Of a DNA stretch of 43,697 bases, positions 1 to 5,419 are shown one piece after another. The DNA is from a virus. Lineage: Duplodnaviria > Heunggongvirae > Uroviricota > Caudoviricetes. A program made the translations under genes and the position numbers. Positions within the stretch are counted from its first letter, which is position 1. Each line of letters opens with the position of its first letter. The DNA lies in IMG/VR virus record IMGVR_UViG_3300012943_000030, positions 1 to 43,697 of that record; one strand, given 5' to 3'. Below the pieces are notes generated by a model that worked only from the letters and a program-made list of their open reading frames with translations, searched no databases and was not told the DNA's origin.

Positions 1-240
1 TCTTCAAGACATGACGCAATAGCCAGTTAAGCAGCGTCAACCCCGCCCTCCGTAATAGAGGGTTCCTACGATACGTGGTATACAAGAGGGAACTGGCCTA
101 CGAGCGTCTCACGACGCTCGACTTATTCAAGAAATTGGCGGCTATGCGCGCCGAGGGCCCTTGTTGGCCACCTTCACATCGCCAGTGAGCTACACGGGAT
201 GGTCTCCGTGTTGACGACGATGCGAAGCTACGGACCATTT

Positions 241-316
241 GGGGAATGGGCAGGGTTACCCGCGTTACACTTGCAATGTGACAGGCAGATCGGTTCGAGT
301 CCGATATTCTCCACCA
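241..316 (+). tRNA. tRNA-Ala(UGC), atypical D-arm
   Basis: Acceptor GGGGAAT/ATTCTCC with G3:U70, A73 and CCA; anticodon loop CT-TGC-AA; T-arm ATCGG-TTCGAGT-CCGAT; lacks U8 and a canonical D-stem. Confidence 0.75.
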
Positions 317-436: not shown

Positions 437-562
437 TGACAACCGTTGATGTTGGTTATCTGGTTAACTTAGTGGCCGTAAAACGCCTACTCAAGTAAAT
501 CCTAAACGGTTCAAACCCGTTGGGTCGTCGCAAGACGTTTTCCGACTTCGCTTTTGTTGTCA
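437..562 (+). ncRNA. tRNA-mimic ncRNA E1 (permuted, YrlA-like architecture)
   Basis: Closing stem TGACAAC(437-443)/GTTGTCA(556-562); motif CAACCGTTGATGTTGGTTATC; T-arm AACGG-TTCAAAC-CCGTT (505-521) followed by a GCAA-capped stem; homologous to 3929-4043. Confidence 0.6.
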
Positions 563-653: not shown

Positions 654-656
654 TTT

Positions 657-752
657 GCTCGTTAGCTTGGGTAAGCGGCTGGGCCTTATAGACCCGGGAA
701 ACCTGCCAGATTAGCGGGAACGTGACGGGTTCGAGTCCCTCAGCGAGCACCA
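657..752 (+). tRNA. Atypical tRNA, probable Ile(UAU), with long extra arm
   Basis: Acceptor GCTCGTT/AGCGAGC-A-CCA; T-loop TTCGAGT; mini D-arm GCTT-GGGT-AAGC; stem CTGGG/CCCGG around CT-TAT-AG; extra arm CCTGC-CAGATTA-GCGGG. Confidence 0.5.
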
Positions 753-841: not shown

Positions 842-917
842 GCCGGCATAGCTCAGTTGGTAGAGCGCCTGTCTTGTAAGCAGGAGGCCCGGGGTTCGAT
901 CCCTCGTACCGGCACCA
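842..917 (+). tRNA. tRNA-Thr(UGU)
   Basis: Canonical cloverleaf, loop CT-TGT-AA, CCA encoded. Confidence 0.95.
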
Positions 918-924
918 GTTTAAT

Positions 925-1053
925 GCAGAAGTAGCCGAGTGGTCAGGCAGCGGTCTCAAACATCGTTTGTGATCCTTTGTTGCGCAAGCAACCGTCCATA
1001 AATGGTTATCCCAAACCGCCATACGTAGGTTCGAATCCTACCTCTCTGCACCA
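925..1053 (+). tRNA. tRNA with a 53-nt structured insertion in the anticodon loop (identity uncertain; CAA if the junction is 37/38)
   Basis: GCAGAAG acceptor, D-arm GCC/GGC, anticodon stem GCGGT(950-954)/ACCGC(1015-1019) enclosing 60 nt instead of 7, T-arm GTAGG-TTCGAAT-CCTAC, A-CCA end; removing 53 nt leaves 76 nt. Confidence 0.7.
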
Positions 1054-1057
1054 ATTT

Positions 1058-1132
1058 GGGACAGTAGCTCAGTGGTAGAGCAACGTGCTGATAACGCGTA
1101 GGTCGAAGGTCCGATTCCTTCTTGTCCCACCA
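1058..1132 (+). tRNA. tRNA-Ile(GAU)
   Basis: Cloverleaf, loop CT-GAT-AA, T-loop TCCGATT, CCA. Confidence 0.93.
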
Positions 1133-1304: not shown

Positions 1305-1389
1305 GCCCCTGTGATGGAATTGGTAGTCATGCGAGTTTCAAAAACTCGTGCCGCAAGGCGTGTCGGTTCGATCCCGACTGGGGGCACCA
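1305..1389 (+). tRNA. tRNA-Leu(CAA)
   Basis: Type II cloverleaf, CGAGT-TTCAAAA-ACTCG, long variable arm, CCA. Confidence 0.93.
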
Positions 1390-2492: not shown

Positions 2493-2560
2493 CTCAGCTT
2501 GGCTAGAGCACTTCGTTCGGGGCGAAGGGGCCGTGGGTTCAAATCCCACCATTCCGACCA
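2483..2560 (+). tRNA. tRNA-Pro(CGG)
   Basis: CGGAATG/CATTCCG-A-CCA; loop TT-CGG-GG. Confidence 0.95.
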
Positions 2561-2588
2561 ACCCGCCTCCATAAATAGAAGGTTAGTT

Positions 2589-3248
2589 ATGGAGACAGAA
2601 ATGCTCGTTAGACAGCTCATTGAAGGCGACGTCATCAAGGGAAACTTCGGCAAAGGCCATGAGGTTAACCCTTCTGTTACCGTCCCAAAGGGCTACAAGA
2701 GCTTTTTCACAAAGCCTGTTGGCGCAACAGCACACGGCATCTTCGGCGTAAAGGACGATGGCTCTGAGCACCGCATCAGCACGACCAACAGCGAGAAGCT
2801 AGCACAGATGCTCACTAAGGAGTACAATGCTGGTGGCAAGGCTGGAACTGGACTGCGCAGCATGCCGCTGATCAGGCTGCTTGGCTCTGAAGAGATCAAC
2901 CATCTTCATGATGCCGGCATTCACTTCCTTGAGAAGCCAGGCGTGTGGGCCGATCTTGAGCGCGATGGTAAGTATCGCCCGCTGACTGATCTTGAACTGA
3001 AGCATGCGAAAAAAGCTCTCGAGAAACATGGGTTCAAGCTGCAAACATACACTGAGCACGACCTTTGGGACACCAAGCCAAAAGGACCGCTCTCGACCGT
3101 TAGAGACATGCCAATGGAAGAGTGCTTCATCGTTGAGCTCTCCAACGGCAACCGCTATCTCGTTGATCGCACCGGCGCCAACTCGTACATTCGCATGTGG
3201 CGAAAGATTGGTGGACCAGTCATTGACGACAGCAAACTGGATTGGTAA
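2589..3248 (+). CDS. Hypothetical late protein
   Basis: Long ORF after ATAAATA (2571); start chosen at the ATG after tRNA-Pro. Confidence 0.8.
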   Translation: METEMLVRQLIEGDVIKGNFGKGHEVNPSVTVPKGYKSFFTKPVGATAHGIFGVKDDGSEHRISTTNSEKLAQMLTKEYNAGGKAGTGLRSMPLIRLLGSEEINHLHDAGIHFLEKPGVWADLERDGKYRPLTDLELKHAKKALEKHGFKLQTYTEHDLWDTKPKGPLSTVRDMPMEECFIVELSNGNRYLVDRTGANSYIRMWRKIGGPVIDDSKLDW

Positions 3249-3912: not shown

Positions 3913-4059
3913 GAGTTCGCTCAGTAAAAGCACAACCGTTGGATATTGGTTATCTTTTATCTGAAACAAAAACCTAGACCGTTCGATTCGGTCGTGTGCA
4001 GGTGGGCCAGGTGCACAATCTCCGATTCCGTTTTTGTTGTACTTTTAGTGAGCGAACTC
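3913..4059 (+). ncRNA. tRNA-mimic ncRNA E2 (permuted, YrlA-like architecture)
   Basis: Perfect 11-bp outer stem GAGTTCGCTCA/TGAGCGAACTC; motif CAACCGTTGGATATTGGTTATC; T-arm GACCG-TTCGATT-CGGTC (3977-3993); stem GTGCA/TGCAC; 3' CCGATTCCGTTTTTGTTGT shared with E1. Confidence 0.65.
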
Positions 4060-5074: not shown

Positions 5075-5221
5075 ATGAAACTCAACATTGTTGAAATAGA
5101 CGGCGTCAAGTACCACCACTTTCGCCATCGTTGCTTTGGCCCAGACCTAAAGAGAAAGACCTTTCACTATGTGCGAAGGATCAATGGTGCCTCTCTTGGG
5201 CCAGCGCTAAAATGGAAATAG
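5075..5221 (+). CDS. Small basic hypothetical protein (48 aa, below the ORF-track cutoff)
   Basis: GAGAG RBS; MKLNIVEIDGVKYHHFRHRCFG...WK*. Confidence 0.55.
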   Translation: MKLNIVEIDGVKYHHFRHRCFGPDLKRKTFHYVRRINGASLGPALKWK

Positions 5222-5340
5222 CAAACCGGGATTGACGGTTATCCACAGATAAGTAGGTTCGAATCCTATCTAGTACGGTACGGCCGCTAGAGGCAACGCT
5301 GGTAAGTTGCAACTCGTTGGTCATTTTTGTTTGCCCTATT
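5217..5340 (+). ncRNA. tRNA-mimic ncRNA E3 (T-arm, acceptor-like stem, D-arm; YrlA-like)
   Basis: Closing stem AATAGCAAAC/GTTTG(CC)CTATT; motif AACCG-N7-CGGTTATC; T-arm GTAGG-TTCGAAT-CCTAT; CTAG/CTAG stem; D-like arm GCAAC-GCTGGTAA-GTTGC; TTTTTGTTTG. Confidence 0.65.
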
Positions 5341-5343
5341 CAT

Positions 5344-5419
5344 GGGCCTGTAGCTCAGCTGGGAGAGCGCCTGCTTTGCAAGCAGGATGTCGCAGGTTCG
5401 ATCCCTGTCAGGTCCACCA
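5344..5419 (+). tRNA. tRNA-Ala(UGC)
   Basis: Canonical, G3:U70, TT-TGC-AA, CCA. Confidence 0.95.

What the first reader, a model, noticed from the sequence alone, without database searches (positions are those of the whole stretch)
925..1053. A CCA-ending tRNA carries the same module in its anticodon loop: the unpermuted form of E1-E3
Seen: the 53-nt insert reads ...TTT-GTTGC-(GCAA)-GCAAC-CG-TCCATAAA-TGGTTATCC. This is the 3' half of the E-module, a GNRA tetraloop, then the 5' half. Opening this RNA at the GCAA loop and joining its 5' and 3' ends gives exactly the element order of E1-E3. Removing the insert at the 37/38 position gives a 76-nt tRNA with loop CTCAAAA, but a separate normal Leu(CAA) exists at 1305 and this one has a short variable loop. 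The insert is too short for a group I/II intron and I see no bulge-helix-bulge. Inference: this is either an evolutionary intermediate between a tRNA and a YrlA-like RNA, or an aminoacylatable tRNA-protein adaptor rather than an intron-containing tRNA.
Basis: partly seen in the sequence, partly recalled or inferred. Interest (0 to 1): 0.82.

Follow-up and report, generated by a model that had tools for sequence, protein, structure and literature searches.

The report
tRNA-shaped Y RNA in jumbo phage
A giant soil phage that encodes the RNA-binding protein Ro60 has a gene that looks like a complete tRNA, with a CCA end, except that its anticodon loop is replaced by the conserved stem its Y-RNA-like genes share. 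This is apparently a new layout for Y RNAs and bears on how they arose from tRNAs.

Summary
Window 925-1053 is a 129-nt tRNA-like gene (Rfam tRNA, 41.6 bits) with normal acceptor, D and T arms and an encoded CCA. A 53-54 nt structured insert sits where the anticodon loop should be.

The insert is the same module as in E1-E3, in circularly permuted order. A profile built only from rearranged E-type modules finds it as the best hit in the 107.7-kb record (E 7.5e-5).

It is not a one-off. I found 19 distinct copies of this "T-type" design, all but one 126-131 nt, in five related ~340-370 kb phage genomes and seven metagenome contigs. On 16 of them, 94.7% of predicted pairs form against 77% in shuffles (0/500). 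A covariance model scores all but one T-type at 82-122 bits (the divergent copy Ta scores 56.7) and ordinary tRNAs at 36 or less.

All five genomes encode a Ro60 (TROVE plus vWA) protein. In three of them, copies of the module lie directly upstream of that gene.

Most T-types have no anticodon stem and cannot be spliced into a decoding tRNA. No splicing endonuclease or RtcB gene was found.

Best reading: a Y RNA in native tRNA topology, matured by tRNA enzymes and bound by phage Ro60. Ro60 binding, expression and charging are untested. I found no published description. An earlier follow-up in this scan described two Y-like RNAs upstream of this genome's Ro60 gene, but not this form.

The parts
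925..1053 (+). T1: the whole tRNA-shaped RNA gene with the Y-like module in place of the anticodon loop, 129 nt
   Evidence: Rfam tRNA 41.6 bits; family model R1 102.5 bits, against 36 or less for ordinary tRNAs
925..931 (+). Acceptor stem, 5' strand (GCAGAAG)
   Evidence: Infernal alignment; covarying helix 1 in A2
1042..1049 (+). Acceptor stem, 3' strand of 8 nt, with bulged C1044
   Evidence: The bulge is kept as U in the G001 orthologue. Similar bulges occur in Tb, M1 and M7
934..948 (+). D arm (3-bp stem GCC/GGC, loop with GG)
   Evidence: U8, A14 and G18 are invariant and G10 nearly invariant across 16 sequences
950..954 (+). Anticodon-stem-like helix, 5' strand (GCGGT), pairs with 1015-1019
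   Evidence: By my reading this helix is present only in T1, T1', Tc, M3 and Ta
1015..1019 (+). Anticodon-stem-like helix, 3' strand (ACCGC)
955..961 (+). Junction loop, 5' side (CTCAAAC); the ..AAAC is shared by most copies
   Evidence: Alignments A1 and A2
962..971 (+). Upper helix, strand a (starts ATCG), pairs with 997-1006
   Evidence: Four of the nine consensus pairs show compensatory changes. U:A becomes C:G in the G001 orthologue
972..978 (+). Asymmetric internal loop, U-rich side (ATCCTTT)
   Evidence: a YYTTT stretch precedes the lower helix in E- and T-types
979..992 (+). Lower helix GTTGC/GCAAC capped by the GNRA tetraloop GCAA (984-987)
   Evidence: GNRA caps (GCAA, GTAA, GAAA, GGAA) occur in most T-types. 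This helix covaries among E-types
993..996 (+). Internal loop, 5' side (CGTC); the CCG at 992-994 is invariant
997..1006 (+). Upper helix, strand b (ends TGGT)
1007..1014 (+). Junction loop, 3' side (TATCCCAA); TATC is invariant
1025..1041 (+). T arm (GTAGG TTCGAAT CCTAC)
   Evidence: A:T becomes T:A, a compensatory change, in the G001 orthologue
1050..1053 (+). Discriminator A and encoded CCA
   Evidence: 15 of the 16 aligned T-types encode CCA
438..561 (+). E1: permuted (E-type) copy of the module, with both RNA ends in the lower helix
3913..4059 (+). E2: E-type copy (module core 3931-4041) with an extra outer stem
   Evidence: The fold has z = -4.85
5221..5334 (+). E3: E-type copy with T arm, closed acceptor-like stem and D-like arm, in YrlA order
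842..917 (+). tRNA-Thr(TGT), 7 nt upstream of T1
1058..1132 (+). tRNA-Ile(GAT), 4 nt downstream of T1
1305..1389 (+). Ordinary tRNA-Leu(CAA) with a long variable arm

Best explanation
T1 is a non-coding RNA of the Y RNA kind, built on an intact tRNA frame. It sits in the phage's tRNA array and is presumably transcribed with it. Because it keeps the acceptor stem, D arm, T arm, elbow nucleotides and CCA, it would be cut out by RNase P and the tRNA 3'-end enzymes, like its neighbours (inferred). Its anticodon loop is replaced by a 53-54 nt rod: a junction loop (..AAAC / UAUC..), a 9-10 bp helix, an asymmetric internal loop (invariant CCG opposite YUUU) and a short GUU../..AAC helix capped by a GNRA loop. 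The same rod forms the terminal stem of the phage's 7-10 permuted Y-like RNAs, two of which lie directly in front of the phage's Ro60 gene. It is therefore most likely the Ro60 binding site (inferred). The RNA would tether Ro60 to something that recognises the tRNA-like half, as Y RNAs tether Ro60 to PNPase. Here that half has a free, possibly chargeable CCA end, which known YrlA RNAs lack. It is not spliced and does not decode. Shown: the structure, its conservation, the homology of the module in permuted order, and its co-occurrence with Ro60. Inferred: processing, Ro60 binding and the tethering role.
For: (1) tRNA frame: Rfam tRNA 41.6 bits. U8, A14, G18 and the T-loop letters are invariant across 16 copies. 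Spacers of 7 and 4 nt separate it from the flanking tRNAs.

(2) A real, selected family: 19 T-type sequences, all but Ta (148 nt) 126-131 nt. On 16 of them, 94.7% of pair cells form against 77.0% in shuffles, 0/500 on all five measures, and 26-52% when partners are slid. R1 gives T-types 82-122 bits, including two from G004 that were not used in training, and ordinary tRNAs 36 or less. The G001 orthologue has compensatory changes in the T stem and in the insert's upper helix.

(3) Same module as the E-types: an HMM built from rearranged E halves ranks T1's insert first in the record, E 7.5e-5, spanning both halves. Rearranged E halves fold into the same helix, internal loop and helix. 28 of 32 pattern hits have a matching 3' half with a covarying lower helix.

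(4) Link to Ro60: TROVE genes occur in all five genomes. The G000 protein has TROVE plus vWA_Ro60, 186.8 bits. Module copies lie directly upstream of the gene in G000, G001 and G002.

(5) Against splicing: by my reading, 11 of the 16 aligned copies have no anticodon stem. M3 has the stem, but its flanks cannot give a U33 loop. No tRNA_int_endo or RtcB gene was found in four genomes, and the controls for both searches were positive. G001 already has Leu-CAA and Val-CAC.

(6) Precedent: M. smegmatis YrlA is cleaved by RNase P and gains CCA in vivo (PMC4201824).
Against: Ro60 binding is not shown. The published Ro60 motif GNCGAAN0-1G is matched only in its CG core (compare PMC4201824). Rfam's YrlA model does not reach its threshold on any copy. 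T1 itself lies about 57 kb from the Ro60 gene. T1, Tc and Ta keep a 5-bp anticodon-like stem whose flanking letters could be read as loop remnants. Gly(CCC), the ARAGORN call, is absent from the 118 kb of G001 that I scanned, so repertoire alone cannot exclude a decoding role.
Confidence: 0.6

Rival explanations
1. T1 is an intron-containing tRNA (Gly-CCC, Leu-CAA or Val-CAC). The structured insert is excised by an unknown host or phage activity, perhaps guided by a protein bound to the module, and yields a 76-nt decoder.
For: The exons give a normal-length cloverleaf with a perfect 5-bp anticodon stem. Loop letters CU.. and ..AA flank the insert. Gly(CCC) is missing from the G001 tRNAs found.
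Against: The splice point is ambiguous. There is no bulge-helix-bulge and no group I intron or other intron family at gathering score. No splicing endonuclease or RtcB gene was found in four genomes. Most family members have no anticodon stem or loop to restore. The discriminator is A73, whereas, from general knowledge, bacterial Gly tRNAs have U73. The acceptor stem has a conserved bulge. The insert's own helices are under selection.
Confidence: 0.1
2. The structure is as described, but the module binds a protein other than Ro60, for example another phage RNA-repair or tRNA-end enzyme. Its presence beside the Ro60 gene would be incidental to that partner.
For: The canonical Ro60 motif is only partly matched (PMC4201824). 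There are 10-12 copies per genome, mostly in tRNA arrays far from the Ro60 gene. The phage carries other RNA-repair genes, such as HAD_SAK_2.
Against: All five genomes with the module encode Ro60. Copies sit directly upstream of the gene in three genomes, which is the classical Y RNA position. The helix, bulge, helix layout and the attached tRNA-like domain match Y RNAs (PMC4201824, PMC12135203).
Confidence: 0.15
3. T-type RNAs are charged tRNA mimics that act in translation, as tmRNA does. The rod is a handle and Ro60 is secondary.
For: A free encoded CCA in 15 of 16 aligned copies. T3 and Td carry G3:U70 with A73, the anticodon-independent alanine identity set (AlaRS rule from general knowledge). 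The elbow nucleotides are intact.
Against: T1 has A3:U70. Five copies have a bulged acceptor stem. By my expectation, not tested here, such a bulge would hinder synthetase or EF-Tu binding. No mRNA-like part and no SmpB-type partner was seen. Charging is untested.
Confidence: 0.1
4. T1 is a dead tRNA gene disrupted by an inserted repeat.
For: Low tRNA score (41.6 bits), bulged acceptor stem, and a redundant Leu(CAA) nearby.
Against: Compensatory substitutions in both the tRNA part and the insert. A narrow size range of 126-131 nt in 18 of 19 copies. The half-order is the reverse of the E-type unit, which a simple DNA insertion of that unit would not give.
Confidence: 0.03

Closest known systems
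YrlA (Y RNA-like A; Rfam RF02553), the tRNA-like Y RNA bound by bacterial and mycobacteriophage Ro60/Rsr
   Same: A tRNA-like L-domain (T arm, D arm, acceptor stem) joined at the anticodon-arm position to a helix, internal loop, helix rod. Encoded in genomes that carry Ro60. The sister element E3 has exactly the YrlA order.
   Different: YrlA has its RNA ends in the Ro60 stem, the T arm 5' of the D arm, and a loop-closed acceptor stem with no free CCA (bioRxiv 10.1101/312249). T1 has the native tRNA order, an open acceptor stem with encoded CCA, and a rod closed by a GNRA loop. The Rfam model does not reach threshold. The GNCGAAN0-1G motif is reduced to CCG.
[quoted passage not shown]
   Same: A Ro60-bound tRNA-like RNA with an opened acceptor stem and a CCA tail, so the end state resembles T1.
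   Different: There the RNA becomes two pieces held together by the Ro60 stem, after processing of a permuted precursor. T1 is encoded as one piece in tRNA order.
D. radiodurans Yrn1
   Same: A Y RNA with tRNA-like features in non-permuted D-to-T order (PMC4201824).
   Different: In Yrn1 the Ro60 helix takes the acceptor-stem position and an anticodon-like arm remains. In T1 the module takes the anticodon position and the acceptor stem is free.
Intron-containing tRNAs (archaeal/eukaryal bulge-helix-bulge introns; bacterial group I introns in anticodon loops)
   Same: An insertion within the anticodon loop of a tRNA gene; ARAGORN reports it as an intron.
   Different: No bulge-helix-bulge, no group I core, no splicing enzymes found, and most paralogues lack any restorable anticodon arm.
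tmRNA and viral tRNA-like structures
   Same: tRNA mimics with a free CCA end whose anticodon arm is replaced by another functional part.
   Different: No mRNA-like region. Charging is untested. The replaced part is a protein-binding rod shared with Y-like RNAs.

Membership tests
tRNA (RF00005) | Cloverleaf with acceptor, D and T arms, scoring above Rfam's gathering score | tested here: met
   41.6 bits against 29
tRNA (RF00005) | 7-nt anticodon loop with U33 and a defined anticodon | tested here: not met
   A 53-54 nt structured insert occupies the loop. Its placement is ambiguous: CAA or CCC by the two programs, CAC also possible by my reading
Intron-containing tRNA (bulge-helix-bulge type) | Bulge-helix-bulge motif at the exon-intron junctions | tested here: not met
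   The junction is a 7 x 8 nt internal loop followed by a 10-bp helix
Intron-containing tRNA (bulge-helix-bulge type) | Splicing endonuclease and ligase available | tested here: not met
   PF01974 and PF01139 are absent from G000-G003 with positive controls. The host is unknown
Intron-containing tRNA (group I) | Group I catalytic core | tested here: not met
   No intron family at gathering score in the window. The insert is only 53 nt
Intron-containing tRNA (any) | A spliced mature form exists | not testable with these tools
YrlA (RF02553) | Match to the Rfam covariance model at gathering score (69 bits) | tested here: not met
   The best overlap is 24.6 bits and spans T1's T arm plus the next tRNA's D arm. 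No copy reaches 69 bits
YrlA (RF02553) | tRNA-like domain with T arm, D arm and acceptor stem attached to the Ro60 stem at the anticodon-arm position | tested here: met
YrlA (RF02553) | Permuted order: T arm 5' of D arm, loop-closed acceptor stem, ends in the Ro60 stem | tested here: not met
   T1 has the native order with an open acceptor stem and CCA. E3 does meet this feature
Y RNA (general) | Conserved 5'-strand motif GNCGAAN0-1G in a bulged helix (PMC4201824) | tested here: inconclusive
   Only CCG is invariant. The following letters vary, and AACCGAATGG occurs in one E-type copy
Y RNA (general) | A Ro60 orthologue encoded in the same genome, usually adjacent | tested here: met
   TROVE plus vWA_Ro60 gene at G000:57932-59551. 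Module copies lie directly upstream of it. T1 itself is about 57 kb away
Y RNA (general) | Physical binding to Ro60 | not testable with these tools
   Needs EMSA or co-immunoprecipitation
T-type family (defined here, model R1) | tRNA frame plus upper helix, asymmetric loop and capped lower helix; R1 score well above that of tRNAs | tested here: met
   102.5 bits (T1 was in the training set). Untrained members score 92.1, 82.6 and 56.7 bits; ordinary tRNAs score 36 or less

The most novel reading that the evidence does not exclude
The T-type RNAs are charged by synthetases that ignore the anticodon (alanine for the G3:U70 copies, perhaps leucine or serine for others). That would give an aminoacylated Ro60 particle linking Ro60-based RNA surveillance to EF-Tu, the ribosome or the phage's tRNA-end enzymes. 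In addition, the one-piece tRNA-order form would be the ancestor from which permuted YrlA-type Y RNAs arose by moving the RNA ends, replacing the published dimeric-tRNA origin model.
Probability: 0.15. Interest if true: 0.88.

Novelty: new variant of a known kind. Interest (0 to 1): 0.72.

Why it matters
Y RNAs with tRNA-like domains are described as circularly permuted tRNAs without a free CCA end. What their tRNA-like half binds is unknown, and their origin is debated; one model derives them from dimeric tRNA transcripts (bioRxiv 10.1101/312249).

This phage clade carries both layouts side by side with the same stem module, so the origin question can be tested by comparison. It also supplies a natural Y-like RNA with an open, possibly chargeable acceptor end.

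The finding explains a class of "intron-containing" or unscored tRNA calls in giant phages.

It also shows that these phages invest in 10-12 Y-like RNA genes each, interleaved with more than 50 tRNAs. That points to a Ro60-based system acting on the phage's own translation apparatus.

Tried and rejected
- Rfam YrlA model on the window and the whole record. It gave only sub-threshold hits that bridge the T arm of one tRNA and the D arm of the next.
Only L049, plus L020/L046, were informative.
- Tighter patterns also returned chance hits in coding DNA, for example genes that look like ATP synthase subunit c. I set these aside because they lack a T loop.
- The search for related loci with the neighbouring ORF 2589-3248 found no relatives.
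- blastn of T1 against 50,697 deposited phage records found only 30-34 nt tRNA-arm matches and no T-type.
- Four of 32 module-pattern hits (L145, L147, L148, L169) have no matching 3' half and were treated as chance.
- A tRNA-like stretch at 654-752 folds no better than shuffles (z = -0.35) and is left unresolved.
- Complex prediction was not used because it takes no RNA.
- Papers searched: YrlA, Y RNA, Ro60 with phage, jumbo or huge phages with tRNA introns. None describes a Y RNA in tRNA order.

Full report
**Context.** The window is the first 43.7 kb of a 107.7-kb IMG/VR virus record, G000, estimated 29% complete. Nearly all the ORFs I scanned lie on the + strand. It carries at least 18 tRNA genes with encoded CCA, two CUA suppressor tRNAs, and auxiliary genes including an RNA-repair HAD domain. 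The whole record has 48 ARAGORN calls. It also encodes a Ro60 orthologue at G000:57932-59551, with TROVE at 113.9 bits and vWA_Ro60 at 186.8 bits.

**The observation.** Positions 925-1053 lie 7 nt after tRNA-Thr and 4 nt before tRNA-Ile. Rfam's tRNA model aligns 925-1050 end to end at 41.6 bits with a 54-nt insertion in the anticodon loop.

- ARAGORN without introns skips the gene. With introns allowed it calls Gly(CCC) with a 53-nt intron at 33/34.
- The boundary is therefore not defined. CAA and CCC loops come from the two programs, and the flanking letters also allow CAC.
- The acceptor stem pairs at all seven positions but has a bulged C1044.
- The minimum-energy fold gives a 5-bp anticodon-like stem, a 7 x 8 nt internal loop, a 10-bp helix (962-971 with 997-1006), an asymmetric internal loop, and the GTTGC/GCAAC helix capped by GCAA. 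This is not a bulge-helix-bulge.

**It is a family.**
- A second copy (T2, G000:45881-46010) has the same design on an unrelated tRNA body, with a GTAA cap.
- Pattern scans and genome searches found more copies. G001 (358 kb, syntenic, with terminal repeats) has T1', T2' and T3. G002 (368 kb) has Ta and Tb. G003 (343 kb) has Tc, Td and Te. G004 (360 kb, Ro60 56% identical) has two. Seven further distinct sequences come from metagenome contigs.
- Eighteen of the 19 are 126-131 nt long.
- The T1 orthologue in G001 differs by compensatory changes in the T stem (A:T to T:A) and in the insert's upper helix (U:A to C:G). It keeps the acceptor bulge as U.
- On a 16-sequence alignment, RNAalifold recovers the acceptor stem, upper helix, lower helix and T stem. 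94.7% of pair cells form against 77.0% after shuffling, 0/500 on all five measures, and 26-52% when partners are slid.
- Covariance model R1 scores all T-types but Ta at 82-122 bits, including the two G004 copies that were not used in training. Ta scores 56.7 bits. Every ordinary tRNA scores 36 bits or less.
- U8, A14, G18 and the T-loop letters are invariant, so the L-shape is under selection.

**The insert is the E-module, permuted.**
- The motif AACCG-N6-14-GRTTATC occurs 10-12 times in each of G001-G004 and never in the reversed-pattern control.
- In 28 of 32 non-T hits, a YYTTT-GTTNNN segment 47-155 nt downstream pairs with the six letters ending in AAC. These pairs covary: GACAAC/GTTGTC, GCAAAC/GTTTGC, GAGAAC/GTTCTC, TGCAAC/GTTGCA and others.
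- Joining each E-type 3' half to its 5' half gives the same fold as the T-type insert: lower helix, asymmetric loop, and a 7-11 bp upper helix ending just before TATC.
- An HMM built only from these rearranged E halves ranks T1's insert first in the whole record (967-1011, E 7.5e-5, spanning both halves). It also finds T2 (E 0.015).
- E3 folds as T arm, loop-closed acceptor-like stem, then a D-like arm with a GG loop. This is the published YrlA order (PMC4201824).
- T1 is therefore the circular permutation of E3. The ends are at the acceptor stem, and the module is closed by a tetraloop.

**Link to Ro60.**
- All five genomes that have T-types encode Ro60.
- Module copies lie directly upstream of the gene in G000 (two copies), G001 and G002. 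An earlier follow-up in this scan described the G000 pair as Y-like RNAs (e1-1839110).
- The rod has the helix, bulge, helix layout of Ro60 sites.
- Only the CG of the published GNCGAAN0-1G motif is invariant here, and Rfam's YrlA model does not reach threshold (PMC4201824, PMC12135203).
- Ro60 binding is therefore an inference.

**Intron or not.**
- By my reading of the sequences and alignment, eleven of the 16 aligned copies have no anticodon stem. The D arm is followed by a short A-rich linker (..AAAC) and then the upper helix, and a small hairpin sits in the variable-arm position. These copies cannot be spliced into a decoder.
- M3 keeps the stem, but its flanks (AAATT and TATCTGGAA) cannot make a U33 loop.
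- The ..AAAC and TATC letters that suggested loop remnants in T1 recur on unrelated tRNA bodies.
- No tRNA splicing endonuclease or RtcB gene was found in G000-G003, with positive controls. No intron RNA family matched.
- The 118 kb of G001 that I scanned holds 55 ordinary tRNAs covering all 20 amino acids, including Leu-CAA, Val-CAC, Gly-GCC and Gly-UCC, but not Gly-CCC. Repertoire alone therefore cannot exclude a Gly-CCC role for T1. Its A73 and bulged acceptor stem argue against that role.

**Mechanism proposed.**
- T-types are cut from the tRNA array transcript by RNase P and the tRNA 3'-end enzymes. The precedent is M. smegmatis YrlA, which RNase P cleaves and which gains CCA in vivo (PMC4201824).
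- They bind phage Ro60 through the rod and present a tRNA-like half with a free CCA end to a partner that recognises tRNA.
- The partner is unknown. Candidates are tRNA-end or repair enzymes, or a nuclease, as in the Ro60-Y RNA-PNPase complex.
- Charging is possible but untested. T3 and Td carry G3:U70 with A73.

**Novelty.** Published YrlA RNAs "lack a free CCA end" and are called circularly permuted tRNAs (bioRxiv 10.1101/312249). Yrn1 has the Ro60 helix at the acceptor position (PMC4201824). I found no paper describing a one-piece Y-like RNA in tRNA order, and no deposited phage genome carries a T1-like sequence. I rate it a new variant of a known kind.

**Limits.** All genomes are metagenomic. 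The host is unknown. Expression, processing, Ro60 binding and charging are untested.

Noticed in passing
window 654-752: A tRNA-like stretch with a 7-bp acceptor stem, a T arm (GGGTTCGAGTCCC), A73 and CCA, a long variable-arm-like hairpin, and what looks like a 9-nt anticodon loop (CCTTATAGA). Neither ARAGORN nor Rfam calls it. It is letter-identical in G001 (L049). Its fold is no better than shuffles (z = -0.35).
   Followed up: partly
L161:1792-1922(-) (T3, G001) and L156:1738-1867 (Td, G003): These two orthologous T-types have G1:C72, G2:C71, G3:U70 and A73. This is the anticodon-independent identity set of alanine tRNAs and tmRNA, so they may be chargeable with alanine.
   Followed up: no
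window 1042-1049; also Tb (L172), M1 (L229), M7 (L228) and T1' (L049): Five of 16 T-types have an 8-nt acceptor 3' strand, that is, a single bulged nucleotide near the T-stem end of the acceptor stem. It is kept between orthologues (C in G000, U in G001). It could be an anti-determinant or a recognition mark.
   Followed up: partly
G000:46330-46430 and 48995-49150 (outside the window); L049 reverse strand 1760-1895: Several E-type RNAs start 4-6 nt after the CCA of a tRNA (..CACCA-AGTTTT-GACAAC..) and end just before the next tRNA. Their ends could therefore also be made by tRNA-processing enzymes. In G001, E1 sits at a different place in the array than in G000.
   Followed up: no
window 1-100 and the reverse complement of L049, 1-100: G000 and the terminal-repeat-bounded G001 share their first roughly 100 letters, so the window probably starts at the true genome end.
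   Followed up: no
L239 (G004): 2504-2632(-) and 2688-2817(-): The two T-types of the more distant phage G004 end in ACCG and ACCT instead of ACCA. One of them caps the lower helix with a 6-nt loop. If these RNAs carry CCA, it must be added or repaired after transcription.
   Followed up: no
L020 / L046 (two other viral contigs): A loop-closed copy of a similar rod (GTTGAG-AAA-CTCAAC-CG..GTGTTATCC), flanked by GGTCGAG/CTCGAC and preceded by a D-arm-like GCTCATTTGG, but with no clear T arm. It may be a more distant relative of the design.
   Followed up: no
window 241-316: tRNA-Ala(TGC) scores only 31.4 bits on the Rfam tRNA model and has an aberrant D arm. A normal Ala(TGC) lies at 5344-5419.
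   Followed up: no
window 3913-4059: E2 has an extra 11-bp outer stem (GAGTTCGCTCA / TGAGCGAACTC) beyond the module's lower helix. This gives a very stable fold (z = -4.85).
   Followed up: partly
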